A stretch of DNA of 64,000 bases, from contig OY970378.1 in the NCBI GenBank assembly GCA_963718875.1, positions 132,396-196,395 of the forward strand, in the 5' to 3' direction. A program made the position numbers and the translations under genes. This document shows positions 270 to 61,033 of the stretch, one piece after another (the first letter of the stretch is position 1; every line of letters begins with the position of its first letter). Under the pieces are notes generated by a model. The model worked only from the letters and a program-made list of their open reading frames with translations. It was not told where the DNA came from and ran no database searches. This stretch comes from Candidatus Parcubacteria bacterium (GTDB lineage Bacteria; Patescibacteriota; Saccharimonadia; UBA4664; JBIOIQ01).

Positions 270-359
270 TGGCGGAGAGGGTGGGATTTGAACCCACGAT
301 ACCCTTGCGGGCATACTGCTTTTCGAGAGCAGCGCCTTCAGCCACTCGGCCACCTCTCC
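270..359 (-). tRNA. tRNA-Ser (anticodon CGA)
   Basis: Reverse complement reads GGAGAGGTGGCCGAGTGG...TTCAAATCC...CTCTCCGCCA. Cloverleaf with long variable arm, anticodon loop CTCGAAA, encoded CCA. Confidence 0.85.
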
Positions 360-422
360 ATCTTATGGCTTACCCAATTTAAACAATTATTTTGGTTTAG
401 TACAGCTTGTAATATGGCGTAG

Positions 423-1127
423 TTAAAACTTGAGTGTTCGAGTTAAGCGCTCGACAAGGTCAGGTTCGCGGTCAATGCGGGGCAAATGAGTTGAAAGAAT
501 AGATTCAATATGGGGTAAATCATTGCTTTCAAACATCACGGTTAGGCGGGGTTGAAAACGTTGCAGAGGATCTAGGTCAATGCTGTGCCAGGCTACGTCA
601 TTAAAAATGGCAAATGAGCGAAACTGGTTGTAGTGGTAGAGCTTTTGGTCGATCGTAATTCCGCTCGCGCCGAGGTGGTAGTTGAGTAGACGTGGTTCTT
701 TGTTGGCATAAACCACCAGGGCTACAGCCATGACGGCAAATACGGCCGCACTAAACCATTGGCTGGTCAAAATTGTTATAACTACCAAGGCTATTATGAT
801 GAGGCCAAAAAAGACGTACCACATTGGCTTTTTTTGGTGGTGAATAAACTCAGATGCATGCCAGCTAAACTCGGTAGGTCCGTCGCTAGCCGGTTGGGGT
901 TCGTCTTGAAACTGATGCCCTGGTTCTGATTCGCCTAATTCATAATCTTCTGTAGCCGGCTGCTCGGCGTCGTCTGGCTGGATATCATCATCAGCTTCAA
1001 ACCGGGAAGGGCTTTGTGATAAATTTTCTACCTCTAATTGCGGTTCAGGATAGTTGGATTTATGGCTTGGTTCTGTAGGCTCGTTCATGATGGTCCTGCT
1101 TTTGCTTGAATTATGACTTAAGGACAA
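423..1127 (-). CDS. hypothetical membrane protein (acidic N-terminal region, one long TM span, C-terminal bacterial PH-like domain)
   Basis: 234-aa ORF. Hydrophobic stretch MWYVFFGLIIIALVVITILT. C-terminal segment resembles bPH/YdbT-like domains. Low-GC backbone. Confidence 0.55.
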   Translation of the reverse strand: MSLSHNSSKSRTIMNEPTEPSHKSNYPEPQLEVENLSQSPSRFEADDDIQPDDAEQPATEDYELGESEPGHQFQDEPQPASDGPTEFSWHASEFIHHQKKPMWYVFFGLIIIALVVITILTSQWFSAAVFAVMAVALVVYANKEPRLLNYHLGASGITIDQKLYHYNQFRSFAIFNDVAWHSIDLDPLQRFQPRLTVMFESNDLPHIESILSTHLPRIDREPDLVERLTRTLKF

Positions 1128-1190
1128 GCGAATTACAATGTAGTCACGAGTAGTTCACGTTAGATTTAATCCGAGCTAAAGGTGCGTTAT

Positions 1191-1228
1191 AAAAAAATAA
1201 GCCGGACATTAAGTCCGGATTATTTTTT
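1191..1228. terminator. bidirectional hairpin terminator (GCCGGACATTAAGTCCGGAT flanked by A-run and T-run)
   Basis: Perfect 8-bp stem GCCGGACA/TGTCCGGC-like hairpin at 1201-1220 with AAAAAAATAA upstream and TATTTTTT downstream. Directly abuts the 3' end of the minus-strand tRNA-Ser(GCT). Confidence 0.5.
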
Positions 1229-1320
1229 GGCGGAGAGGGAGAGATTCGAACTCTCGCTAGAGATTACTCCCTACTACAGGTTTAGCAAACCCGCCCCTTC
1301 AGCCACTTGGGTACCTCTCC
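1228..1320 (-). tRNA. tRNA-Ser (anticodon GCT)
   Basis: Reverse complement GGAGAGGTACCCAAGTGGCTGAAGGGGCGGGTTTGCTAAACCTG...GAGAGTTCGAATCTCTCCCTCTCCGCCA. Anticodon loop TTGCTAA, long variable arm. Confidence 0.85.
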
Positions 1321-1388
1321 GCGTCGCAGTTTTATATAACTTTCGCTGCAAACTGTCATGTTGAGCGAAGTCGAAACATCTATTCAAT

Positions 1389-1417
1389 AGATCTCTCCAC
1401 TTTGGTCGAGATGACAT
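1389..1417 (+). repeat. REP-like palindromic element, K-subtype (AGATCTCTCCAC...GTCGAGATGACA)
   Basis: Near-identical copies at 53150-53177 and, in reverse orientation, 6829-6857. Hairpin ATCTC/GAGAT. Confidence 0.6.
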
Positions 1418-1450
1418 TTGGCCTTCCAGACGAAGCTAAAGAGCGTAGCC

Positions 1451-1538
1451 TGGCGGAGGGGGTGGGATTCGAACCCACGGACCCGTGAAGGTCTCCGGTT
1501 TTCAAGACCGGTGCACTCGGCCGCTATGCGACCCCTCC
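1451..1538 (-). tRNA. tRNA-Ser (anticodon TGA)
   Basis: Reverse complement GGAGGGGTCGCATAGCGGCCGAGTGCACCGGTCTTGAAAACCGG...GGGTTCGAATCCCACCCCTCCGCCA. Anticodon loop CTTGAAA. Confidence 0.85.
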
Positions 1539-8219: not shown

Positions 8220-9401
8220 CTAGTCCCTTATTGAATGCGAGTGCATTTGCATGCTCGAGTCAGCCACCAGGAGCTTAGGGTCGGTAGTCATGCCATCGTG
8301 TGCATACCAGTAACCCAGCGCGGCGATCATGGCGGCGTTATCCGTGCAGAGGTTCATAGCGGCATAATTAATTTCTATAGGTAAACGCTTTTTGAGCTCG
8401 GTGCGTAAGGCTTGGCTGGCCGCCACGCCACCAGCAATGACAACAGATTTAGGGCTGTGTCGCTCGTAGGCCACCATCATGCGGTCAACCAGGGTGTCGA
8501 TGACAGTTTTTTGAAATGAAGCAGCCACGTCGTTTTTTTGCTGATCGTTTAAAAGGGGAGCGAGGGTGTGGGAGGCAGCAGTTTGGTCGAGACCGAGCAT
8601 GGTTTGAACTTGACGCAACACGGCGGTTTTAACTCCGCTAAAGCTGTAATCTAGACTATCTTTACCAAGCTTGGCTTTGGGGAAAGTAAAAGCATTGGGG
8701 TCGCCATTTAAGGCAGCTTTTTCTAGCGCCGGTCCACCTGGAAATCCTAGCCCGAGTAATTTAGCAATTTTGTCGAACGCTTCGCCAGCGGCGTCGTCGC
8801 GAGTTTGACCTAAAACTTGGTAGTTGTGGTGGCCATGGAACAGAACGATTTGCGAGTGTCCGCCAGATACAATCATAGCTAGCAGTGGGAAGTCGGGCGG
8901 CTGCCATTCGGATTTAACATTTAACATTTGACCTTTGATGTGTGACGAGTCTAAGAAGTTTGCATAAACGTGGGCTTCTACATGGTTGATGGCATAAAGT
9001 GGTTTGTGGTGGAGCTCGGCCAGGGTTCGTGCTGTCAATGTTCCGATTAAGAGTGACCCGAGTAATCCCGGTCCGGCTGTGACGGCAATTCCGTCAATTT
9101 GATCCCACAGAGTGTTGTCATTCCTGCGAAGGCGGGGATCTAGATCGCTGGATCCTCGATCCGGAGCGCTATGGCTTCCGGTCAAGGATGACAATTGGGG
9201 GAAAGCCTGCTCGAAGGCTTTTTCTACCACGGGAAGCATAGCCTCAATGTGGCTACGGGCGGCAATTTCGGGTACGACACCTCCAAATTGCGCGTGAATG
9301 TCAATTTGCGAAGCCACAATGTTGGATAAAATGTGGCGCCCATCTTTTACGACAGCGGCAGCGGTTTCGTCACAACTGGTTTCAATCCCAAGGATATTCA
9401 T
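8220..9401 (-). CDS. tsaD: tRNA N6-adenosine threonylcarbamoyltransferase TsaD (Kae1/Gcp family)
   Basis: MNILGIETSCDETAAAVV N-terminus, AVTAGPGLLGSLLIG, HVEAH metal-binding motif. Contains an extra ~27-aa insert (PQLSSLTGSHSAPDRGSSDLDPRLRRNDNT) not present in typical TsaD. Confidence 0.9.
   Translation of the reverse strand: MNILGIETSCDETAAAVVKDGRHILSNIVASQIDIHAQFGGVVPEIAARSHIEAMLPVVEKAFEQAFPQLSSLTGSHSAPDRGSSDLDPRLRRNDNTLWDQIDGIAVTAGPGLLGSLLIGTLTARTLAELHHKPLYAINHVEAHVYANFLDSSHIKGQMLNVKSEWQPPDFPLLAMIVSGGHSQIVLFHGHHNYQVLGQTRDDAAGEAFDKIAKLLGLGFPGGPALEKAALNGDPNAFTFPKAKLGKDSLDYSFSGVKTAVLRQVQTMLGLDQTAASHTLAPLLNDQQKNDVAASFQKTVIDTLVDRMMVAYERHSPKSVVIAGGVAASQALRTELKKRLPIEINYAAMNLCTDNAAMIAALGYWYAHDGMTTDPKLLVADSSMQMHSHSIRD
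9124..9184 (+). repeat. REP/RPE-like element inserted in frame inside tsaD
   Basis: GGATCC-TCGATCCGGAGCGCTATGGCTTCCGGTCAA-GGATGACAA matches the intergenic family-1 elements (for example 50672-50736, 32843-32873). It coincides with the TsaD insert. Confidence 0.6.
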
Positions 9402-26767: not shown

Positions 26768-26798
26768 AAGAGATCCTGAAACAAGTTCAGGATGACAC
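26768..26798 (+). repeat. REP/RPE-like element (family 1, minimal form AAGAGATCCTGAAAC-AAG-TTCAGGATGACA)
   Basis: Perfect 8-bp hairpin flanked by AGATCC and GGATGACA terminal motifs. Confidence 0.65.
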
Positions 26799-26842
26799 TT
26801 AAAATTTATGAGATAATAAACTTTAAGAAACGGAGCTTTTTT

Positions 26843-27457
26843 ATGTCAGACCCCAACTTTGCATACGTCCCTAAGCATCTGGCCACGCGAACCCACGAAG
26901 ACATGAAAGCGGTTTTAATGAGCCCTGACGCGCAAGGTCCAGCCGTACATTATTACATGATTAGAGGTGGGAGCCAGCAGCGTAATGTAACGGTGTGGGA
27001 GCCGGGTAAGGTAGGGGGTGAATATATCAAAACCTTTGGTCATTACCATGTTGGGCCCTTGGATGAAACTTATGAGATTTTGGAGGGTCAGGGGTTTGTA
27101 CTGCAGGAAAGATTGGAGGTTAACGAGGCGGGAGAAATGGTTGCAGATAGGGTAGCCGAGTTTAAAGTCATTCCCATCAAAGCTGGCGACAGCGTGTTTA
27201 TCCCGGCTGGTTCAGGTCATTTAGCTGTTAATACGGGTGATACCTACATGGTAACGACCGACGACAGCCCGGTTAATTTTGATGATTCTGACCCAAGTGG
27301 ACATCCAGGTCATGCTGATTACTCTCTGGTGAGGCAGACGCGAGGATTTGCCTACTATGTGGTGGAGCGTGATGGCGCGCCTGCCTTAGTAAAGAATCCT
27401 CATTACAGTGTTATTGCAAATGAAGACCTTGGCGGCTTATCGGTGGTAGAAGCTTGA
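26843..27457 (+). CDS. cupin-type glucose-6-phosphate isomerase (cPGI-like)
   Basis: Internal Met with GGAG RBS. TFGHYHVG and YMIRGGSQ cupin/PGI motifs. Low-GC backbone composition. Confidence 0.65.
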   Translation: MSDPNFAYVPKHLATRTHEDMKAVLMSPDAQGPAVHYYMIRGGSQQRNVTVWEPGKVGGEYIKTFGHYHVGPLDETYEILEGQGFVLQERLEVNEAGEMVADRVAEFKVIPIKAGDSVFIPAGSGHLAVNTGDTYMVTTDDSPVNFDDSDPSGHPGHADYSLVRQTRGFAYYVVERDGAPALVKNPHYSVIANEDLGGLSVVEA

Positions 27458-29103: not shown

Positions 29104-29703
29104 TTACTTGGGCTTTTCGGTGAAGTTGAAAGTGGCTTGTTGAACCACCACTCGCTTATCGGCTGGGTAGGAGTTGATGATCCCGATGGTGGAATCGACG
29201 TAGCCTTCCCAGTACTTGGCGAACTTCTTGCCGTTGTTGTCCAAGCAAAGCGTCCAGGTACCCGATGATTGCCCGATGTACACGCCGGTGGGCTCACCCT
29301 GATCGATGCTGAACAGCTCGCGGCTGTTGTCATCGGGGAGATCCACCCACTGCGTTGAACCAGACAGTTGATAGCTGCTGGGGACTGGTGCTCCTGCGGA
29401 GGGGCACCACCAGATGAGGCCAATGCCTTCGAGGTACCCCGCGGTGGTGCTGGTGGCACCGGTGGCGCGGATGGTTTCGACGTCAATGACTGTCTGCCTC
29501 TCCTGGCTCCAGTCGAAGGTAGGAACTTGCTGGCTGTTACTCAGCCGGTTGAAGCCGGTTTGCACAGCCTTCTGCTCCTCCTTGGCGGTTTTGCCGCCTT
29601 TCTCGGATTCCTCGCTGTTGTTGCTGCATGTGCCAGCAAATGTTCCGAAGAACACCACTAGCACGAATGCAATTATGCTGAACTGCTTGCGGTTCATGAG
29701 CAT
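29104..29703 (-). CDS. lipoprotein (hypothetical)
   Basis: Signal peptide with lipobox FAGTC. 199 aa. GC about 55%. Confidence 0.55.
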   Translation of the reverse strand: MLMNRKQFSIIAFVLVVFFGTFAGTCSNNSEESEKGGKTAKEEQKAVQTGFNRLSNSQQVPTFDWSQERQTVIDVETIRATGATSTTAGYLEGIGLIWWCPSAGAPVPSSYQLSGSTQWVDLPDDNSRELFSIDQGEPTGVYIGQSSGTWTLCLDNNGKKFAKYWEGYVDSTIGIINSYPADKRVVVQQATFNFTEKPK

Positions 29704-31214: not shown

Positions 31215-31305
<91 letters not shown>

Positions 31306-32674: not shown

Positions 32675-32765
32675 CAAGTAAAGGGAGCCTCCCTTTTAGT
32701 GGTTATGTTAGCATTTCGAGCTCATTTCTTAAGTTAGGGAGCCTCCCTCGAATTTGTTATGCTCC
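32675..32765. repeat. paired palindromic motif element (2x GGGAGCCTCCC), second locus
   Basis: Same arrangement as 2845-2940. Marks the left boundary of the GC-rich cassette array. Confidence 0.55.
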
Positions 32766-32789
32766 GACCCAAGGCTTCAAACTCCACGT

Positions 32790-32873
32790 TGTCACCCTGA
32801 ACCGTCGGCTGACGGTTGTTTCAGGATCTCTTAATCTGGACAAGAGATCCCGGATCGTGGTCCGGGATGACAA
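32790..32873. repeat. inverted pair of family-1 REP/RPE-like elements
   Basis: Reverse copy GTCACCCTGAAC...TCAGGATCTCTT, then forward copy AGAGATCCCGGATCGTGGTCCGGGATGACAA. Confidence 0.6.
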
Positions 32874-32937
32874 GAAGAAGGTTGAAAACTTAGGTCGGGC
32901 CCCGCACCAGCCTTGGTAGACTTGGTGCGGGACGGGG

Positions 32938-33384
32938 TTAGGACGGGTCGGATTCGGGTGCCGGAGGGCGCTTGGCGAGCTCGATTTCGAGCTCGGCGAC
33001 ACATCTTTCGTGGTCTTTAACAACCTCCATGAGTAGCTCAGCTTTTTCCTGATAACGCTGGGCCTCGGCCGCGATGCGCATGTAAAGCGTTTCGATGGTG
33101 CAGTCTTTGGGGAACTGGTCGAACCCTGCGTCAAGGAGTGCGATGAAAGCATCGATAGCCTTTTTGGCTGCTTTGTACTCATGCTTGTAAAACCAACCGG
33201 GCCAGTCGGGATCGGCCTCGCAGTAGGGAACCATGAACTCCTGGAGCAGCTGAGCGTAGGGTCGAATGACGCTCCATGGCTCATTCCACGGATTGTAGAA
33301 CTGGGTGATCCTCTCCAGTGTCCACATTCCGTCTCTGATTCTTTTGAGGACGTCTCGCAGTGCCTGGGTGGGGTGAATGGTCAT
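32938..33384 (-). CDS. cassette-array paralog A1 (hypothetical, C-terminal coiled coil and Pro-rich tail)
   Basis: 148 aa, N-terminal MTIHPTQALRDVL. Shares N-terminal and C-terminal (ELEIELAKRPP...DPS) features with 33395-33811, 35444-35989 and 36119-36628. Confidence 0.6.
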   Translation of the reverse strand: MTIHPTQALRDVLKRIRDGMWTLERITQFYNPWNEPWSVIRPYAQLLQEFMVPYCEADPDWPGWFYKHEYKAAKKAIDAFIALLDAGFDQFPKDCTIETLYMRIAAEAQRYQEKAELLMEVVKDHERCVAELEIELAKRPPAPESDPS

Positions 33385-33394
33385 GGGATCTGTT

Positions 33395-33811
33395 TCAGTT
33401 GGAGTGCGAAGGGGGCGAGGAAGGACGCTTTTTGAGCTCGGTTTCGAGTCCTTTGATGCGGGCGTCCAGTTCTTTAACCTGTGACGCGAGGGACTCAGAC
33501 CAGTTTTTGTAACGGATCCTTTCGCCGGCGATTCTCATGTAGAGATCACCGATGGTAGTACCACTTGGGAGCCGATCGAATCCGGCATCTATTAACTCGA
33601 TGAAGGCGTCAAGTGCCTGTGTGAAAGTGGGCGAGTAAGGAAGTTCATGGTGCTCGCCAAGGAAAGCTTTGATGAGCTCCTGGTAGGGTGAAAACACGCT
33701 GTCGGTTGCCATGCCACCGCCTTGCATTACTGCGGCATATGCGCTACGAGAGTTTGCGTCTCTGGCTGCGACGAGCGCGTCGCGAAGTGCTTGGGTTGGG
33801 GTTAGCGTCAC
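33395..33811 (-). CDS. cassette-array paralog A2
   Basis: 138 aa, MTLTPTQALRDAL... Shares DAFIELIDAGFD...LYMRIAGE block with A1. GTG start with AAAGGAT RBS. Confidence 0.6.
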   Translation of the reverse strand: MTLTPTQALRDALVAARDANSRSAYAAVMQGGGMATDSVFSPYQELIKAFLGEHHELPYSPTFTQALDAFIELIDAGFDRLPSGTTIGDLYMRIAGERIRYKNWSESLASQVKELDARIKGLETELKKRPSSPPSHSN

Positions 33812-33978
33812 GGGTTATCTATCCTTTGGGTTGTGGATCGTGTACACGGGTTGCATCGTTGCTTCCCGACCTAAGGTTTCAAAGCTCTTTTTAAGACCTG
33901 ATCTTCGATAGTTGAAAGCTTGGGTCGGGGTTCCGCCGTGCGCTGGTTAGGGCGCAGGCAGCGGAACCTGTGGATGGG

Positions 33979-34383
33979 CTATACCGGGTGGATCTTGTGC
34001 ATACTGCACTTGAAGATGTCGATCATGGGGAACTCGGCCTGAGGGTGTTCCGCCTCGAGGTAAACTACGCCGGCCAGGTCGGAAGTCAGGTTGAGGCCGG
34101 TGGAGCTGGTAATGAAGTCACTTACCAAGTCGATGGCCATGCTGTCGTCCTGGTCCAGCTCGTACTTGCTGACGCCGAACTTGGCGGCGATCTTGCCGTG
34201 GTCGAGCTCGAACTGCTCGGTGTTGGTGTCGCGGTCGTAGTCGTTGCGAGAGCAGAGCCAGGCGCTGCGGACTCGGACGATGGCTTTGACTTGGACGCCT
34301 TGCTCTTCTCTGAGCTCGCGCTTGACGAGCGTGAGCTGCTTGGCACTGACCTTGCCGATCACCACTAGCGTGGTGGCTGCCAT
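33979..34383 (-). CDS. cassette-array gene B (hypothetical, 134 aa)
   Basis: Own conserved leader with AAAGGAAGA RBS. Flanked by the TTAGGTCGGG/CCCGACCTAAG inverted-repeat boundary elements. Confidence 0.5.
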   Translation of the reverse strand: MAATTLVVIGKVSAKQLTLVKRELREEQGVQVKAIVRVRSAWLCSRNDYDRDTNTEQFELDHGKIAAKFGVSKYELDQDDSMAIDLVSDFITSSTGLNLTSDLAGVVYLEAEHPQAEFPMIDIFKCSMHKIHPV

Positions 34384-34548
34384 GATGTTCTTCCTTTGAT
34401 CGTCGGTACACGGGTAAGCACTGTTGCTTCCCGACCCAAGACTTCAATCTTATTTACACGGGTGGAACCGATGTAGGATTTGAAAACTTAGGTCGGGGTT
34501 CCGCCGCTGTAGCCGGAGCTACAAACGGCGGAACCTGGGAATGGGTGG

Positions 34549-35226
34549 TTAGCTGGATACGCCTTCGGGTGCTGATCCCTCAACGGGTGCATCCTCGAAG
34601 GGATATGCCAAGACTCGAGCGACTTCACTCTCCAAGGTCTCGGTGCTGAAGCCCACCAGGGCACGGTCTAGGGCTTGGCTACGAAGCTTGACCTCAAGTG
34701 CCTTGAGGCGCTCCGGGATCCCGCTGCTTTGCCAGTCCCGGTAGAGGTGTTGAGCGCAGAGCATCTCCATATGGTAGTGGCTTGCAACTGCCGAGCGGAA
34801 GCCATCGGTGCCTACAGGGCTGTTGGGGTAGTTGCCGAAAATGGCGATGATGAGCTCACCGTCCTCGCCGAAGACGGCGAGAGAGAACTCGTCATCGATG
34901 TCGTAGCCAGCACCGTGACGGAATGGGAAGCCGAAGCTGTCACGACCAGGATCCGGCTGCTTGATCTCGTAGTGGAACACGATACCCATCTCGATGCGTA
35001 GCAGCTCGCCGCCCTTGTTTCGAAGGTGGCGGGTGACCACTTTGCCGCTGACAATGAAATCGAGCGTGTTGCCGAGCTTGACGAGCTCATAGGTGGTGCC
35101 ATTGATGTCGGCTGAGTAAATATCCCTCAACACTTCCTCAATGAGGTGGTGCTCAGGGCTGTGGTGGTGAATCGATCGGTAGCCAACTGCTTGGGGGTGA
35201 GCGTGGGCGGGTCGGGTGTAGGCCAT
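34549..35226 (-). CDS. cassette-array gene C (hypothetical, 225 aa)
   Basis: Conserved leader ...CCGAAAAAGGATGG-N7-ATG. Same boundary elements. Confidence 0.5.
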   Translation of the reverse strand: MAYTRPAHAHPQAVGYRSIHHHSPEHHLIEEVLRDIYSADINGTTYELVKLGNTLDFIVSGKVVTRHLRNKGGELLRIEMGIVFHYEIKQPDPGRDSFGFPFRHGAGYDIDDEFSLAVFGEDGELIIAIFGNYPNSPVGTDGFRSAVASHYHMEMLCAQHLYRDWQSSGIPERLKALEVKLRSQALDRALVGFSTETLESEVARVLAYPFEDAPVEGSAPEGVSS

Positions 35227-35349
35227 TGAAAACCATCCTTTTTCGGTTGTCGATCGGGTACACGGGTAAGCACTATTGCTTCCCGACCTAAGACTTCAAA
35301 ACTCTTTGTTGTCACCTTGTACTTGATTCAGGGTCTCTTAATCTGGACA

Positions 35350-35380
35350 AGAGATCCCGGATCGTGGTCCGGGATGACAA
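35350..35380 (+). repeat. family-1 REP/RPE-like element (AGAGATCCCGGATCGTGGTCCGGGATGACAA)
   Basis: Identical to 32843-32873. Preceded by a degenerate reverse copy. Confidence 0.6.
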
Positions 35381-35443
35381 TTTAGGGTTGAAAACTTAGG
35401 TCGGGCCCCGCATCAGCCTTGGAAGACTTGATGCGGGACGGGG

Positions 35444-35989
35444 TTAGGACGGGTTCGGCTTGGATACCGGAGGACGGGTGGCGAGTTCGGCTTCGAGCTC
35501 GGCGATGCGGGCGTTGAGGTCGTCGTTCTGCTGGCAAACCTTGCGGTGCTCGCGAGCGAGGTTGTCGAGTTGGCTGTACCGCTCTTGGAGTGAGATGACA
35601 AGGGAGTCGTGGTCTAGACGTACTGTCGCGAGCTTGGCCTCGAGCTTGGCGACGGTCTCCCTCGTGATGGCGAGCCAGTACTCTGCCTTGAAACGGTATC
35701 CTGCAGCCCACATCAGCCTGTTGTCGATGGGGTTGGTAGGGGAAAGCTCGTCGGCTCCTGAGTTTACCAACCAGATGATGCTGTTGATGGCCGCGATGTT
35801 GCGAGCTTGGGTTCCCGCGAAGTCTACCTGGGCAGCATCGATGAAGGTACGGAAGTGGCCACTGACTGTGCTGAAGATGCTGTGGTTACCCGGGTTGCCA
35901 ATTATCTGCTCAATGTTGGACTCTTGGGGGTCGGAGTCCCTGAGCGCCTTGAGGGCGTCGATGAGGGCCTGGGTAGGGTTGATTGCCAT
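35444..35989 (-). CDS. cassette-array paralog A3
   Basis: Start at internal Met (MAINPTQALIDALKALRD) with AAAAAGGACGG RBS. C-terminus ARIAELEAELATRPPVSKPNPS. Confidence 0.6.
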   Translation of the reverse strand: MAINPTQALIDALKALRDSDPQESNIEQIIGNPGNHSIFSTVSGHFRTFIDAAQVDFAGTQARNIAAINSIIWLVNSGADELSPTNPIDNRLMWAAGYRFKAEYWLAITRETVAKLEAKLATVRLDHDSLVISLQERYSQLDNLAREHRKVCQQNDDLNARIAELEAELATRPPVSKPNPS

Positions 35990-36118
35990 GGTGGCCGTCC
36001 TTTTTGGGTTGTCGGGTACACGGGTAAGCACTGTTGCTTCCCGACCTAGGGCTTCAAACGAGGTTGAAAACTTAGGTCGGGCCCCGCACCAGCTGGGTAG
36101 GCAAGGTGCGGGACGGGG

Positions 36119-36628
36119 TTAGGACGGGTCGGGTTCGGGTGAGTAAGGCTCCTGCAGAGCTGCGACTTTGGCTTCGAGTTCGGCGACGAGGAGCTTCATT
36201 TGATGACCCTCATGCCTGAGAACCTGGTTCTCGTTGCGCTCTTCCCTCAGGTGGTCTAGGTTCTCGCGGATGACCTGTCGGGCTTGGTAGAGCTCGCCGC
36301 CAACCTTCATAGCGAAGTCAGCAACCTGAGAGCCGTCAGGGAGTACCGTCAAGCCGGCCCAGATGAGCTCGAACAGGTGGTTGATGACAGCCTTGCACTG
36401 CGTGTACAGGATGTCCCTCCTGGTTTGCGAGTTCATGCCCTCGAGGTTATCCAGGATCCCACATGCCTTCCTGAACGGCAGGATGAGTTGAGCGACCTCG
36501 TAGAACATGTGGTAGGGGTCGGTGGTGGTAAGGAGCTGAACTGCTTCGGCGACGTCCAGGGTGCCGGTGTTGGCGCCAATGCGCATTTCTTCCAGCTTGG
36601 CCATCAGAGTTACGGTGGGGTTGAGCAT
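36119..36628 (-). CDS. cassette-array paralog A4 (promoter-proximal)
   Basis: 169 aa. C-terminus LVAELEAKVAALQEPYSPEPDPS. AAAGGACGAATACC-ATG leader. Confidence 0.6.
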   Translation of the reverse strand: MLNPTVTLMAKLEEMRIGANTGTLDVAEAVQLLTTTDPYHMFYEVAQLILPFRKACGILDNLEGMNSQTRRDILYTQCKAVINHLFELIWAGLTVLPDGSQVADFAMKVGGELYQARQVIRENLDHLREERNENQVLRHEGHQMKLLVAELEAKVAALQEPYSPEPDPS

Positions 36629-45149: not shown

Positions 45150-46230
45150 GTGCAGGGCCTCCTCCATTCCGTTTTGAATCAGGACAGTCAACCCGTAGAG
45201 TGTCATCATGGTAAAAGCTACTAAACTAACATCGGCAGAGCGTTCGGAAATAGAAATTCTTTTAAATAAAGGTCACACTCTTAGGGCCATTGGTCGGGCT
45301 TTGGGCCGGAGCCTCAATACCATCAGTGATGAGGTGAAGCGTAATAAGACCCCGGAAGGCTACAATGCCCGCATCGCCAAACAAAAAGCCTACGTCAAAC
45401 GCAAGTATGCCAAGTACCAGGGCAAGAAGATCCAGGAGAATGATGATTTGCGCTGGTACATCATTGTGCGCCTCATGGATGGCTGGAATCCCGATGAGAT
45501 AGCGGGACGACTAAAAAAAGATCAGCACGGTTACTATGCCTCTAAGACAGCCATCTACGAATGGCTCGACAGCGCCAGAGGGCAGAAGTACTGTGACTAC
45601 CTGCCCTCCCGTAGGTACAGACCAAAGAAGCGCAAACCAAAGACCGATCGGGTGATGATTCCAGATCGGGTGAGTATTACAGAGCGCCCCCATGAAGCTA
45701 CCGTCCGGAGCGAAGTGGGCCACTATGAGGGGGATACCATCGTTAGCGGCAAGCGGACTGGATCAAAAGCAGCAATCGTAGTGATTCAGGAACGAGTCAC
45801 CAGACTGATTGCTGCTAGACCCATCCCAGACTTGTGTCCGGTGAGCTTTAATGGAGCCATCAGCTCTTCCAAACTGGTCTTGCTCTCATCAGCAGTCTGA
45901 CTCTCGACAACGGTATCGAGAACCGTTGGCACAGATTGCTCGATATGCTCGTTTTTTTCTGTGACCCCTATTCTAGCTGGCAAAAAGGAGGGGTGGAAAA
46001 CGCCAACCGAATGATTCGGCACTACTTGCCCAAAGGCATGGATCTAGCCACCGTGACGAACAAAGAATTGCAGCGTATCATTACGATCATAAACAACAAA
46101 CCCAGGAAGATCCTGGGATATATGTCCGCTATTGAAATGGCTAAAGAGAAAGGAGTTTTACGAGAGACTGTCCTGATTGAGGGGTGAATTCAGGGCAAAC
46201 ACTGTTAATTGATTATAGCACCAATGCTTA
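45150..46230 (+). mobile_element. IS30-family insertion sequence (boundaries approximate)
   Basis: Contains a transposase with N-terminal HTH and C-terminal DDE region (SLTLDNGIENRWH, LVFFCDPYSSWQKGGVENAN). Terminal repeats are only weakly recognisable. Confidence 0.6.
45208..46187 (+). pseudogene. IS30-family transposase interrupted by a frameshift near 45840-45855
   Basis: ORF 45208-45900 (N-terminal two-thirds) and ORF 45936-46187 (C-terminus). The frame-0 continuation upstream of 45936 reads ...SLTLDNGIENRWHRLLDMLVFFCDP, matching the IS30 consensus. Confidence 0.75.
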
Positions 46231-46278
46231 AATAAGTCAAATTTGCGTAATCGTGAATCTAGTCTATTTTCTTTTCTG

Positions 46279-46327
46279 GGTCCCCGATCCGGAGCGGTTG
46301 AGTACAACCTTCCGATCGAGGATGACG
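46279..46327 (+). repeat. family-1 REP/RPE-like element
   Basis: CCCCGATCCGGAGCGGTTGAGTACAACCTTCCGATCGAGGATGACGA. Confidence 0.5.
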
Positions 46328-46444
46328 ATGAGGCTGTTCAGGTTAATGTTATGACAAGTCGGACTTCTCACCGGAAAAGAAGTCCGACTTGTATTGACTT
46401 TTCGGTTTTTGTTTGGTATGCAAGATTAGGGGTATAATACTGCT

Positions 46445-50671: not shown

Positions 50672-50736
50672 AGAGATCCCGGATCCGGAGCGCCAAGCTA
50701 TGCAATGGTTCGGCTTGGCTTCCGGTCCGGGATGAC
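50672..50736 (+). repeat. family-1 REP/RPE-like element with nested hairpin
   Basis: AAGAGATCCCGGA-TCCGGAGCGCCAAGC...GCTTGGCTTCCGG-TCCGGGATGACG. Closest relative of the copies embedded in tsaD and polA. Confidence 0.65.
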
Positions 50737-50745
50737 GTTTTTTTA

Positions 50746-58225: not shown

Positions 58226-61033
58226 ATGGCTCAAAAGAAACTAATATTAGTTGACGGAAATGCATTGTTCCACCGGGCGTATCACGCTATTCCACATTTA
58301 ACGAACTCTGAAGGGTTGCCGACTAATGCAGTGTATGGGTTTACTAATATTTTGCTCAAAGTTTTTAATGATTTAAAGCCAGATTACGCTATTGTGGCTT
58401 GGGACAAATCAAGTAAAACCTTTCGAGATGAGTTGTATCCACAATATAAAGCGACTCGTACAAAACAGCCGGATGATCTGTATGCCCAAATACCCTTGGT
58501 AAAAGAGCTAGTGGCAGCGCTTAATTTACCCTTTGTAGAACTCGAAAACTATGAAGCCGATGACGTTATAGGGACGCTGGCTGCTCAAGCCAAAGGAGTT
58601 GAGACGATTGTGGTTACAGGCGATCGCGATGAATTACAGCTTGTGAGTGATACTACCAAAGTGGATCTGTATAACCCTATGACAGGGGCGAGCGTGCTGT
58701 ATGATCTTCCGGCGATGCAAGAGCGTTATGGGATGACGCCGGCTCAGTTTATTGACCTCAAGGCGCTTAAGGGCGATGCGAGCGATAATATTCCGGGGGT
58801 GCCCGGAGTCGGTGAAAAAACGGCTATGGATCTAATCCAGCGTTATGGCAGTTTGGACGGCGTCTATGAGCATTTGGATGAGAACAAGGGTAAGCTCTTA
58901 GAACGATTAACCGATAACAAAGAACTAGCTTACTTGAGTCAAAAACTTTCAACTATTGTTTGCGACGCACCAGTGACTTTAGAGCTGGATAAAGCGGAAG
59001 TGGGCCGTTATAACCGTGAAGCTACACATGAACTGTTTCGGAGACTGGGTTTTAAAAGCTTGTTGGCAAAACTGCCAGCTGAACTAGCCATGGCAGAGGT
59101 TGGTGCTCCGCCAAGTTTGTTTGACTCAAAAACACCGCAAAAGTTGCGCTCACACATAGACGATACCAAATACATTTGCGTTAAAAGCGTGCAGCAGCTG
59201 GATGATCTGCTGAAAAAAATGACTACAGTTAGTGAGTTTGCGGTAGATACTGAAACGGATGATATAGCTGTAATATCGGCCAAGTTGGTGGGGATAGCAG
59301 TGTCCTTTAAAGAGGCGGAAGCTTACTACATACCGGTTGGGCATGAAACAAGTGAGGGGGGCAAGGATAAATCCCAGCTTGATCTAGAACTGGTGATTAC
59401 AAAGCTTAAGCCAGTGCTAGAAAACGAAAAAATTGGAAAAATTGGACATAATCTAAAGTTCGATTATCAGGTACTTGCGACTCATGGTGTTGTTCTCAAA
59501 CCAATAGTCTTTGATACTATGATTGCGGCGTTTTTGATGAATCCGTTAATGAGATCGCAAACTTTGGGTGACTTAGCATATTCCGAACTAGGGATAGACA
59601 TGATACCGATTGAGGAAATGATAGGTAAAGGCAAAGGGCAGGTTTCGTTTGACCGCGTAACAGTAGAAGATGCTACGCGTTATGCTGCAGAGGATGCTGA
59701 TATAAGCTGGCGGCTGTACCAAAAAATGCAACCAGAATTGGTTAAAACCGGATTCGATGATTTAGCACGTCAAATGGAGTGGCCGTTGATACCACTTTTG
59801 GGAGACATGGAGCTGGCCGGTATTACACTTGATAAAGACTTTTTAAAACACTTCAATAAAAGCATTAGCGCTCGGATTTTGGAACTGGAGGAAGAAATTT
59901 GGAAAGTGGCAGGGGAAAAGTTCAACATTGCTTCTCCAGGGCAGTTGGCCAGAATCTTATTTGAAAATTTAGGGATTGATCCCCAGGGCATTAAAAAAGG
60001 TAAAACGGCTTATTCAACAGCTGCAACTGAGTTGGAGAAAATGCGCCATTTGCACCCCATTATTGAGATGATCTTTGAGTATCGTGAGTTAGTAAAGCTT
60101 AAGAACACTTACGTAGATGCACTGCCGGAGATGGTAAGTTCTGTAGATCATCGGATTCATACCAGTTTTAGCCAAACAATTGCCCAGACTGGTCGGTTGA
60201 GTTCATCAAATCCGAATTTGCAAAATATTCCGGTAAGGACGGAGTTGGGTCGGGAAATTCGCAAGGCTTTTGTGACGCCACCTGGGCGTGTGTTTGTGGG
60301 AGCAGACTATTCCCAAATTGAGTTGCGAGTGGCAGCAGCACTTTCTAAGGATGAGGCCATGATAGAAACCTTTAAAAGTGGCGTTGATTTGCATCAACAA
60401 ACAGCAGCCGAGTTGTATGGTGTGTCTCTTGATAAAGTTACCAAAGACCAACGGAGTGCCTCCAAAACAATTAATTTTGGAGTTCTGTATGGGATGAGTG
60501 CCCATGGGTTGAGCGTCGCTACAGGGATGGCTCGCGATGAGGCACTAGGATTTATAAAACGCTATTTTGAAGTCAGACCAAAACTAGCTCAATATATAGA
60601 GGAGACCAAGGAGTTTGCACGCAAAAACGAGTACACAGAAACCCTGTTTGGGCGCAAGCGGCCATGTCCAGAAATTAACTCGAACAATCACATTGTGGCG
60701 GCTGCAGCCGAAAGAATGGCAGTAAATGTGCCAATTCAGGGAACGGCAGCTGATATTTATAAGCTGGCTATGATTGCACTTGTGCCAAAGCTGGGGATGG
60801 CGGGTTTGTCATCCCCGATCGGAAGCGATAGCGCTCCGGATCCGGGATCCACCACCCGCCTTGGAACTCAACTGCTGTTGCAAATCCATGATGAACTGAT
60901 AGCTGAAACCGATGAGGATAAGGGAGTTGAGGTGGCCAAAGTTATGAAAGAGGTCATGGAAAATGTTTACGATATCGGCGTCCCTTTGGCGGTTGATACA
61001 GCTGTAGGTAAAAGCTGGGGACAGCTAAAATAA
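58226..61033 (+). CDS. polA: DNA polymerase I
   Basis: 935 aa. 5'-3' exonuclease N-terminus, 3'-5' exonuclease, polymerase motifs A/B/C (DYSQIELR, RSASKTINFGVLYG, QIHDEL). Contains an extra ~20-aa insert (GMAGLSSPIGSDSAPDPGSTTRL) before motif C. Confidence 0.95.
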   Translation: MAQKKLILVDGNALFHRAYHAIPHLTNSEGLPTNAVYGFTNILLKVFNDLKPDYAIVAWDKSSKTFRDELYPQYKATRTKQPDDLYAQIPLVKELVAALNLPFVELENYEADDVIGTLAAQAKGVETIVVTGDRDELQLVSDTTKVDLYNPMTGASVLYDLPAMQERYGMTPAQFIDLKALKGDASDNIPGVPGVGEKTAMDLIQRYGSLDGVYEHLDENKGKLLERLTDNKELAYLSQKLSTIVCDAPVTLELDKAEVGRYNREATHELFRRLGFKSLLAKLPAELAMAEVGAPPSLFDSKTPQKLRSHIDDTKYICVKSVQQLDDLLKKMTTVSEFAVDTETDDIAVISAKLVGIAVSFKEAEAYYIPVGHETSEGGKDKSQLDLELVITKLKPVLENEKIGKIGHNLKFDYQVLATHGVVLKPIVFDTMIAAFLMNPLMRSQTLGDLAYSELGIDMIPIEEMIGKGKGQVSFDRVTVEDATRYAAEDADISWRLYQKMQPELVKTGFDDLARQMEWPLIPLLGDMELAGITLDKDFLKHFNKSISARILELEEEIWKVAGEKFNIASPGQLARILFENLGIDPQGIKKGKTAYSTAATELEKMRHLHPIIEMIFEYRELVKLKNTYVDALPEMVSSVDHRIHTSFSQTIAQTGRLSSSNPNLQNIPVRTELGREIRKAFVTPPGRVFVGADYSQIELRVAAALSKDEAMIETFKSGVDLHQQTAAELYGVSLDKVTKDQRSASKTINFGVLYGMSAHGLSVATGMARDEALGFIKRYFEVRPKLAQYIEETKEFARKNEYTETLFGRKRPCPEINSNNHIVAAAAERMAVNVPIQGTAADIYKLAMIALVPKLGMAGLSSPIGSDSAPDPGSTTRLGTQLLLQIHDELIAETDEDKGVEVAKVMKEVMENVYDIGVPLAVDTAVGKSWGQLK
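60806..60850 (-). repeat. family-1 REP/RPE-like element inserted in frame inside polA (reverse orientation)
   Basis: Plus strand TTGTCATCCCCGATCGGAAGCGATAGCGCTCCGGATCCGGGATCC is the reverse complement of GGATCCCGGATCCGGAGCGCTATCGCTTCCGATCGGGGATGACAA. Confidence 0.6.

What the first reader, a model, noticed from the sequence alone, without database searches (positions are those of the whole stretch)
60806..60850. polA copy of the in-frame palindromic element
This is a separate locus from tsaD. The plus strand reads TTGTCATCCCCGATCGGAAGCGATAGCGCTCCGGATCCGGGATCC. Its reverse complement matches the tsaD and 50672-50736 copies almost base for base (GGATCCCGGATCCGGAGCGC...GGATGACAA). It encodes GMAGLSSPIGSDSAPDPGST between conserved polymerase blocks.
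Basis: seen in the sequence. Interest (0 to 1): 0.65.

Follow-up and report, generated by a model that had tools for sequence, protein, structure and literature searches.

The report
Palindromic repeat inserted in-frame in polA
A small hairpin-forming repeat that is scattered through this Saccharibacteria (TM7) genome has landed inside the DNA polymerase I gene without breaking the reading frame, adding a floppy 21-residue loop. The same thing is already known from Rickettsia and other bacteria, but I found no report of it in this bacterial group.

Summary
Window 60806-60851 is a 46-nt imperfect palindrome inside a 935-aa DNA polymerase I gene. It is 40/46 identical to a copy in tsaD and shares both arms with two intergenic copies.

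It is a lineage-specific insertion. Of the 119 closest PolA homologues, 117 have three residues at this site and this genome has 24. Removing 63 nt (60798-60860) restores KLGIGTQLLLQIHDEL. AlphaFold2 predicts the insert as a low-confidence coil (pLDDT below 50 at residues 866-877) in an otherwise confident model. An independent assembly encodes the identical protein.

The element fits the CGTC/TGTC-tagged REP super-family of Di Nocera et al. 2013, which includes Rickettsia RPE-4/RPE-6 and Neisseria dRS3:
- an unpaired TGTC tag;
- an 8-bp basal stem that starts A-T, T-A;
- a CCA tail;
- frequent head-to-head dimers.

At least 18 units lie in the 64 kb, mostly intergenic. Related units sit in frame in PolA of two other Saccharimonadia and in PcrA/UvrD of a Berkelbacteria MAG, always read as (L/V/A)SS.

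Verdict: a new member of a known kind, most likely a tolerated selfish insertion. How it is mobilised is unknown.

The parts
60806..60851 (+). REP-like unit in polA. Tag TGTC 60807-60810; basal stem ATCCCCGA 60811-60818 pairs with TCCGGGAT 60841-60848 (7 of 8 pairs); inner stem with apical loop ATAG 60828-60831; unpaired tail CCA 60849-60851.
   Evidence: Sequence; DNA fold; unit table; 40/46 identity to the tsaD unit.
60798..60860 (+). The 63 nt (21 codons) that are extra relative to all orthologues. This is the unit plus an outer 7-bp inverted repeat, GGCGGGT (60799-60805) / ACCCGCC (60854-60860). Removing it restores KLGIGTQLLLQIHDEL. The boundaries are ambiguous by a few bases.
   Evidence: MAFFT alignment of 120 PolA proteins; empty site in relative L001; break in the Klentaq alignment; fold. 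GC is 65% for 60794-60856 against 45% for the whole gene.
58226..61033 (+). Host gene polA (DNA polymerase I, 935 aa). The insert falls at residues ~860-880, between helix 822-855 and strand 882-887, which leads into the catalytic Asp889.
   Evidence: AlphaFold2 mean pLDDT 88.3; pLDDT below 50 only at 291-294 and 866-877.
9115..9194 (-). Head-to-head dimer of two units inside tsaD (ORF 8220..9401, minus strand), encoding LSSLTGSHSAPDRGSSDLDPRLRRNDN. The first unit (9149-9194) is the closest relative of the polA unit.
   Evidence: (inverted repeat I3). The alignment to T. maritima TsaD breaks at query 68|100 = chain 69|70.
50673..50738 (-). Intergenic unit of the same subfamily (tag CGTC, longer apical hairpin), lying between two minus-strand genes.
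   Evidence: (-20.8 kcal/mol, z = -5.4); gene table.
46277..46328 (-). Intergenic unit of the same subfamily (tag CGTC, tail CCA).
32789..32873 (.). Example of an intergenic head-to-head dimer of other subfamilies (outer ends TTGTCA...TGACAA, structured spacer). Further units at 1388, 6587, 6819, 26770, 28729, 28822, 35309, 35351, 36930, 53149 and 56043.
   Evidence: (three-hairpin fold, z about -4.7).

Best explanation
The segment is one copy of a dispersed family of small palindromic repeats. These are REP-like units of the CGTC/TGTC-tagged super-family, the kind that includes Rickettsia palindromic elements RPE-4 and RPE-6.

A 63-nt palindrome (the 46-nt unit plus a 7-bp outer stem) was inserted into the polA coding sequence after this lineage split from its nearest sampled relatives. 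It landed in the loop that joins the long palm/fingers helix to the beta-strand carrying the catalytic Asp of motif C. The length is a multiple of three. The reading frame used (TTG TCA TCC ... = LSS...SAPDPGS) gives a small, polar Ser/Gly/Pro/Asp-rich peptide. The protein therefore tolerates it as a disordered surface loop, and the insertion persists as a passenger with no required function.

What is shown:
- it is an insertion;
- it belongs to the family;
- it can form a hairpin;
- the loop is predicted disordered;
- the same kind of in-frame insertion recurs in other CPR genomes.

What is inferred:
- Units spread by copying. I think the most likely route is a single-stranded hairpin handled in trans by an enzyme that reads the invariant tag and the foot of the stem, because exactly those bases are conserved while the rest of the stem co-varies.
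- Selection removes copies in disruptive frames or sites.
For: Insertion:
- 117 of the 119 closest PolA homologues (57-79% identity) have 3 residues where this protein has 24. P0049 and P0110 carry extra residues of their own in this loop.
- The closest relative has an empty site at DNA level.
- Alignments to Klentaq abut at chain residue 480.

Family:
- 4 subfamily copies in the window against 0 in shuffles.
- 18 curated units: GTC invariant in 18/18, preceded by T or C; stem pairs 1-3 are A-T, T-A, C-G in 16/18; pairs 4-8 co-vary (for example pair 5 is C-G in 9 units and T-A in 7); tail starts with C in 18/18.
- 20 tag+stem+tail matches against 5.3 +/- 2.2 in dinucleotide shuffles.
- Copies by descent at unrelated loci: repeat D6 92% identical, I11 100%, and three units sharing the same stem mismatches.

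Match to the published definition of CGTC REPs: CGTC often TGTC, stem 8-9 bp starting with A and T, 3-nt tail ~CCA, head-to-head dimers, intragenic copies in DNA polymerase I and UvrD, no transposase known.

Tolerance: AlphaFold2 mean pLDDT is 88.3, with the insert a coil at pLDDT below 50 and confident flanks.

Recurrence in the same frame:
- P0082 PolA 'LSSSIESGSAPDRGS...'.
- P0110 PolA twice, once in the same loop.
- Berkelbacteria PcrA/UvrD 'ASSLTGSDSAPDRGS...', about 34 extra residues relative to PcrA 2pjr.
- tsaD in this window.

Not an artefact: the identical protein is on an independent assembly.
Against: - No mobilising enzyme was found. The only transposase in the window is a degraded IS30 whose terminal repeats are unrelated.
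- No target-site duplication or conserved target flanks the units.
- Only 64 kb of a 1.19-Mb genome could be read, so copy number and any enzyme encoded elsewhere are unknown.
- No relative closer than 79% exists, so presence/absence among strains, which would be direct proof of recent mobility, was not seen.
- The 46-nt unit is not a multiple of three. The extra 17 nt form an outer stem that the other 17 units in the window lack.
- The idea that the right flank is a decayed second unit is not statistically supported (723 of 5000 shuffles score as well).
- Neutrality of the insert is inferred, not measured. Six of six coding copies share one frame, which could also reflect a function.
Confidence: 0.8

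Rival explanations
1. The hairpin acts at nucleic-acid level inside polA and is kept for that reason. It could be an mRNA structure that pauses translation or alters stability, or a DNA site bound or cut by a host protein (gyrase- or IHF-like, an uptake or recombination signal). The peptide would then be a by-product.
For: - The structure is stable (z = -3.65).
- Foot and tag are conserved while stems co-vary.
- Intergenic units lie mostly between unidirectional or convergent genes, as reported for REPs thought to act as RNA.
- First units are 41/46 identical between Saccharimonadia and a Berkelbacteria MAG.
- Hosts are biased to genome-maintenance genes here and in the literature.
Against: - The insert is absent from every sampled relative, so polA works without it.
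- Inserts in other genomes sit at different sites.
- No Rfam family matches.
- No expression or binding data exist.
Confidence: 0.1
2. The inserted peptide is an adaptive protein feature, a new flexible loop next to the active site that changes PolA activity, fidelity or partners. This is the 'mutator' idea of Di Nocera et al.
For: - All six coding copies are read in the same frame, giving Ser/Gly/Pro/Asp-rich peptides.
- The site is 8 residues before the catalytic-Asp strand.
- The same PolA loop was hit independently in P0110.
Against: - The peptide is predicted disordered.
- The same DNA occurs in non-coding positions.
- Frame bias is expected from purifying selection alone: one frame of the polA copy has TAG, one frame of the reverse complement has TGA, and the others give Arg/Cys/His-rich peptides (read directly from the sequence).
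- The loop varies among relatives.
Confidence: 0.06
3. Assembly or polishing artefact: a repeat copy wrongly joined into polA.
For: The repeat is short, GC-rich (65% against 45%) and multi-copy, which is the kind of sequence that can confuse assemblers.
Against: - The identical 935-aa protein is encoded on an independently built Logan contig.
- The insert is exactly 21 codons with no stop.
- It differs from every other copy in the window (at most 87% identity), so it cannot have been copied from one of them.
- Analogous in-frame inserts occur in unrelated assemblies.
Confidence: 0.02

Closest known systems
CGTC-tagged REPs (Di Nocera, De Gregorio & Rocco 2013, BMC Genomics 14:522; PMC3733652); families CGTC-1 to CGTC-4, including Neisseria dRS3
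   Same: - An unpaired C/TGTC tag at one end.
- An 8-bp basal stem whose first two pairs are A-T and T-A.
- A 3-nt unpaired tail (CCA in the polA and tsaD copies, CTC/CTA elsewhere).
- Head-to-head dimers with the tags outside.
- Several subfamilies in one genome.
- Mostly intergenic, between unidirectional or convergent genes.
- Intragenic copies in DNA polymerase I and UvrD-type genes.
- No associated transposase.
   Different: - The host phylum is Patescibacteria/CPR, which is not among the five phyla listed in that paper.
- Loops are not the 4-5 nt of the published families. They span 0-64 nt here and are often a second, structured stem; in polA there are 20 nt between the basal arms, closed by a 4-nt loop.
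- Sequence relatedness to the four published consensus sequences could not be tested, because the figures are not held.
Rickettsia palindromic elements (RPEs; Ogata et al. 2000 and 2002, from my own knowledge; summarised in PMC10969869 and PMC3733652)
   Same: - Palindromic repeats inserted in frame in housekeeping genes of a reduced-genome, host-dependent bacterium.
- The encoded peptides are compatible with the protein fold.
- RPE-4 and RPE-6 are classed as CGTC REPs.
   Different: - RPE-1 and similar elements are ~100-150 bp; this insert is 63 nt.
- Different phylum.
- Translation of the insert has been shown for some RPEs, not here.
REPIN/RAYT systems (GTAG-tagged REP doublets mobilised by REP-associated tyrosine transposases; PMC3337134)
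   Same: Small hairpin units with a conserved unpaired tag, often as inverted doublets. The proposed single-strand, hairpin-guided mobilisation in trans is the working model I adopt.
   Different: - The tag is TGTC, not GTAG.
- No RAYT or Y1 transposase gene was seen in the window or in the gene tables of related loci.
Classical bacterial MITEs (Correia, ERIC, RUP and others)
   Same: Short, non-autonomous, palindromic and dispersed. They can make in-frame fusions.
   Different: - No target-site duplication.
- No parent IS with matching ends.
- Units are single hairpins, not TIR-bounded segments.

Membership tests
CGTC-tagged REP super-family (Di Nocera 2013) | Unpaired terminal tetranucleotide CGTC, often TGTC | tested here: met
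   GTC is invariant in 18/18 units and is preceded by T (16) or C (2). The polA unit has TGTC at 60807-60810. Definition.
CGTC-tagged REP super-family (Di Nocera 2013) | Stem of 8-9 bp whose first and second positions are complementary A and T | tested here: met
   Positions 1-8 pair and position 9 mostly does not. A-T and T-A occupy positions 1 and 2 in 16/18 units. The polA unit has 7 of 8 pairs, ATCCCCGA/TCCGGGAT.
CGTC-tagged REP super-family (Di Nocera 2013) | Loop of 4-5 nt | tested here: not met
   The distance between 9-nt stem arms is 0-64 nt across the units. In polA it is 20 nt, folded into an inner stem with the 4-nt apical loop ATAG. This is a long-loop, structured-loop variant.
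CGTC-tagged REP super-family (Di Nocera 2013) | 3-nt unpaired tail, consensus CCA | tested here: met
   The tail is CCA in the polA, tsaD and 46277 units and CTC, CTA, CTT or CTG in the others. The first base is C in 18/18.
CGTC-tagged REP super-family (Di Nocera 2013) | Head-to-head dimers (tags outside) predominate | tested here: met
   There are four HH dimers in the window (9115/9149, 28729/28822, 32789/32844, 35309/35351) and no TT dimer. The polA copy itself is a singleton; a decayed second unit is not supported.
CGTC-tagged REP super-family (Di Nocera 2013) | No dedicated transposase | tested here: inconclusive
   No Y1/RAYT or other intact transposase turned up among 30 window ORFs scanned. 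Only 64 kb of 1.19 Mb was visible.
Rickettsia palindromic elements (RPE) | Palindromic repeat inserted in frame in a protein-coding gene, at a position compatible with the fold | tested here: met
Rickettsia palindromic elements (RPE) | Sequence homology to RPE-1 to RPE-10 consensus sequences | not tested
   No RPE sequences were available in the tools. The link is only through the published assignment of RPE-4/6 to CGTC REPs.
REPIN/RAYT | GTAG tag, and a RAYT gene flanked by the repeats | tested here: not met
   The tag is TGTC. No RAYT was found in the window.
MITE derived from an IS | Terminal inverted repeats plus a target-site duplication, and a parent IS with the same ends | tested here: not met
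   Dimers have TTGTCATCC/GGATGACAA ends, but no direct repeats flank any unit. The TIR of the IS30 remnant is unrelated.

The most novel reading that the evidence does not exclude
The units could be the substrate of an undescribed tag-specific enzyme system in CPR bacteria that moves them between distant classes. The first unit of the tsaD dimer is 41/46 identical to units in a Berkelbacteria MAG. Retention in polA, pcrA/uvrD and tsaD, always in one frame, could be functional: tuning replication or repair proteins or their mRNAs in genomes that have few other regulatory options.
Probability: 0.1. Interest if true: 0.7.

Novelty: new member of a known kind. Interest (0 to 1): 0.38.

Why it matters
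It extends the 'protein-coding palindrome' phenomenon, best known from Rickettsia, to the ultra-small episymbiotic Patescibacteria. Their reduced genomes are usually thought to be poor in mobile DNA.

It again involves DNA polymerase I and a UvrD-type helicase, the gene classes that Di Nocera et al. found decorated in other phyla. That recurrence makes the open question sharper: is the bias towards genome-maintenance genes tolerance, targeting or function?

There is also a practical point. Such inserts inflate protein lengths, break profile alignments into two pieces, and could be mistaken for misassemblies or new domains when annotating CPR genomes.

Tried and rejected
- **Peptide searches for other host proteins.** The search for homologous proteins refuses queries under 40 aa. 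A 48-aa concatenate of the two insert peptides found no candidates. A full HMMER scan of 1.84 billion representatives with the 32-aa tsaD insert returned only an unrelated repeat protein, P0121.
- **DNA pattern scans for the subfamily.** They gave 5 loci in genome contigs (the source genome is not in that collection), 4 short metagenome contigs and none in viral contigs. That is too few for a census.
- **Rfam.** Only the four tRNA-Ser genes matched.
- **GATC/Dam idea.** The units are rich in GATC, but GATC is neither enriched nor avoided in the window (241 observed, 251 expected).
- **IS30 as mobiliser.** The remnant at 45177-46178 has unrelated ends.
- **Decayed second unit to the right of the polA copy.** Not significant.
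- **Unbiased tag enrichment with loose hairpin criteria.** This drowned in noise. The perfect-stem version was too sparse, and its 'reversed' control was invalid because reversal keeps palindromes.
- **Intein or mini-intein.** Not pursued: the insert is 21 residues with no splicing motifs, and the same DNA occurs in non-coding positions.
- **Literature.** I found no paper on REP, MITE or RPE-like elements in CPR/Saccharibacteria.
Full report
**1. The observation**

It lies in the ORF 58226..61033(+), 935 aa. That ORF is a full-length DNA polymerase I with 5'-3' exonuclease, 3'-5' exonuclease and DNA_pol_A domains.

The 20-mer GGATCCCGGATCCGGAGCGC, allowing up to 3 mismatches, occurs four times in the window and never in 100 dinucleotide shuffles. 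The polA segment is 40/46 identical to a segment in the tsaD-like ORF 8220..9401(-). It shares both arms with intergenic copies at 50673-50738 and 46277-46328. The unit is one base longer than reported (60806-60851).

**2. It is an insertion, and it is real**

The best database match to the PolA is the identical protein on a 1,189,924-bp contig. The next best match is 79% identical, and named hits are Saccharimonadia/Patescibacteria.

In a MAFFT alignment of the 120 best homologues, 117 of the other 119 have three residues between 'ALVPKL' and 'TQLLLQIHDEL'. This protein has 24. The two exceptions are P0049 and P0110, which carry extra residues of their own in the same loop. The contig of the closest relative shows an empty site, CTA CCT GTG GGT ACT.

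Against solved structures, the alignment to Klentaq splits into two pieces that abut at chain residue 480. About 20 query residues are left without a counterpart, directly before QVHDEL.

Read from the sequence, deleting 60798-60860 (63 nt) gives KLGIGTQLLLQIHDEL. That is the same length as the relatives and keeps their common Gly. These 63 nt are the 46-nt unit plus an outer 7-bp inverted repeat, GGCGGGT/ACCCGCC. The whole folds at -22.4 kcal/mol (z = -3.65). The stretch 60794-60856 is 65% G+C against 45% for the gene.

The identical 935-aa protein is also encoded on an independently assembled Logan contig from run ERR12037361. Together with the intact frame, and the fact that no other copy in the window is more than 87% identical, this makes an assembly artefact very unlikely.

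**3. Effect on the protein**

AlphaFold2 with a 58-sequence alignment gives mean pLDDT 88.3. Only two segments fall below 50: residues 291-294 (an inter-domain linker) and 866-877. The insert is coil between helix 822-855 and strand 882-887, which leads to the invariant Asp889. The fold around it is predicted with confidence, so the insert behaves as a disordered surface loop.

**4. The family**

Hand curation from regex and hairpin scans gives at least 18 units in the 64 kb. Oriented tag-first they read (T/C)GTC | 8-bp stem | variable middle | 8-bp stem | C(T/C)N.

- GTC is invariant in 18/18 units.
- Stem pairs 1-3 are A-T, T-A, C-G in 16/18.
- Pairs 4-8 co-vary. Pair 5 is C-G in 9 units and T-A in 7. 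Pair 7 is G-C in 7, A-T in 4, T-A in 2 and C-G in 1.
- Position 9 is mostly unpaired.
- The first tail base is C in 18/18.

A tag+stem+tail search finds 20 matches against 5.3 +/- 2.2 (maximum 11) in 100 dinucleotide shuffles.

Several subfamilies each have copies at unrelated loci. Examples are repeat D6 (92% identical), inverted repeat I11 (24/24) and three units that share the same stem mismatches. This argues for spread by copying rather than independent origin.

Eight units form four dimers with the tags outside (9115/9149, 28729/28822, 32789/32844, 35309/35351). One of them folds as three hairpins closed by TTGTCA/TGACAA.

Apart from polA and tsaD, units are intergenic. They lie mostly between unidirectional or convergent genes, with one divergent case.

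No Rfam family matches. No target-site duplication or common target is seen. The only transposase in 30 ORFs scanned is a degraded IS30 with unrelated ends.

**5. The same thing elsewhere**

In the PolA alignment, P0082 carries 'LSSSIESGSAPDRGSDSRPRGDDK' in the 3'-5' exonuclease domain. Its DNA is TTGTCATCCTCGATCGAAAGCGGCAGCGCTCCGGATCGCGGATC plus a second unit ending GACGACAA.

P0110 carries two dimers of another subfamily, (T/G)TGTCATCCTCGGACTTGATCCGAGGATCT...AGATTCTCTGGTCAAGCCAGAGAATGA(C/T)A. One of them sits in the same loop as ours.

A pattern scan found the subfamily four times in a Candidatus Berkelbacteria MAG, once in another Patescibacteria MAG and on four metagenome contigs. Berkelbacteria units are 41/46 identical to the tsaD unit. 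In locus L006 the unit, followed by a second hairpin, lies in frame in a PcrA/UvrD helicase. It adds about 34 residues relative to PcrA 2pjr: query 99|140 corresponds to chain 104|111.

The tsaD dimer in this window adds about 31 residues relative to T. maritima TsaD.

All six coding copies are read tag-first as xTG TCA TCC (L/V/A-S-S). Reading directly from the polA copy, one forward frame contains TAG and one reverse frame contains TGA. The remaining two open frames give Arg/Cys/His-rich or hydrophobic peptides. The shared frame is therefore what purifying selection would leave.

**6. Comparison with what is known**

Di Nocera, De Gregorio and Rocco (2013; PMC3733652) define a CGTC-tagged REP super-family with these features:
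[quoted passage not shown] - 3-nt tails fitting CCA;
- mostly head-to-head dimers (tags outside);
- presence in Proteobacteria, Chlorobi, Bacteroidetes, Spirochaetes and Thermotogae;
- identity with Neisseria dRS3 and Rickettsia conorii RPE-4/RPE-6;
- intragenic copies notably in UvrABCD, RecBCD and DNA polymerase I;
- no dedicated transposase.

The units here meet the tag, stem, tail and dimer criteria and show the same genomic habits. They differ in the long and often structured middle part, and in the host phylum.

The MITE review PMC10969869 summarises RPEs as frequent in-frame inserts compatible with protein conformation.

I found no paper describing such elements in CPR/Saccharibacteria. 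That is an absence in the searchable library, not proof of novelty.

**7. Mechanism**

I commit to the passenger model. A non-autonomous hairpin repeat was copied into polA. It survived because the site is a permissive loop, the length is a multiple of three and the frame is benign.

The conserved tag and stem foot, against co-varying upper stems, point to recognition by a trans-acting protein on a folded single strand, as in REP/RAYT systems. This step is inferred, and no enzyme was identified.

Rivals are a nucleic-acid-level function of the hairpin, an adaptive protein loop, and an artefact. I weigh them at about 0.10, 0.06 and 0.02.

**8. What led nowhere**

- Peptide-based searches for further host proteins.
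- The viral scan.
- The GATC idea.
- The decayed-second-unit idea.
- Loose hairpin statistics.

**9. Verdict**

The finding is real and correctly interpreted. It is a new member, in a new phylum and with a long-loop architecture, of a known kind of element and a known kind of event. Interest is moderate.

Noticed in passing
window 45177-46178: Degraded IS30-family element. It has a 13-bp perfect terminal inverted repeat (AATCAGGACAGTC / GACTGTCCTGATT), a truncated transposase ORF at 45208-45900 (NF033563 positions 1-168 of 267, plus HTH_38) and a separate 83-aa ORF at 45936-46187 that may be its C-terminal remnant.
   Followed up: partly
window 32700-36200: A block of segmentally repeated modules (repeat finder families D2-D7 and D13; for example 120 nt at 87% and 58 nt at 97%). 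They are interleaved with ORFs that have no Pfam or NCBIfam match, and two REP dimers lie at the module borders.
   Followed up: no
window 32562, 37844, 43170, 47709, 61627: A near-perfect 19-nt palindrome, CCAGAGGTTAAACCTCTGG (family D10). Several copies sit directly after stop codons (37844, 43170, 61627). It could be a terminator-like element or a protein-binding site distinct from the TGTC units.
   Followed up: no
window 23313, 36886, 37029, 53103(-), 55120, and ~1345-1378: A second hairpin family, GCCTTCGACTnCGnTCAGGC. The unit near 1345-1378 reads TGTC|ATGTT-GAGCGAAGTCGA-AACAT|CTA. From my own recollection, not tested here, the TGAGCGnAGnCGA loop resembles CGTC-type repeats of other phyla.
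   Followed up: no
window 26770-26798 / ORF 26792..27457: The predicted ATG of the GPI/cupin-like gene lies inside the tag of a REP unit (GGATGACAC). Either the repeat supplies the start codon or the true start is downstream.
   Followed up: no
L012 10001-12970 (P0110), L002 4300-7170 (P0082), L006 3-1418(-): Other CPR genomes carry in-frame REP dimers. There are two in one PolA, one of them in the same loop as here; one in another PolA; and one in a Berkelbacteria PcrA/UvrD. The PolA loop after 'PVGH' in the 3'-5' exonuclease domain is a hot spot for lineage-specific inserts of several kinds.
   Followed up: partly
window 270-1538 and 31215-31304: There are four tRNA-Ser genes (anticodons CGA, GCT, TGA, GGA). 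Three are clustered within 1.3 kb, with REP units between them.
   Followed up: no
window 29327-29344: A stemless remnant, TTGTCATCGGGGAGATCC (tag and tail without a hairpin), lies inside ORF 29104..29703(-), which has no family match. It is possibly a collapsed unit.
   Followed up: no
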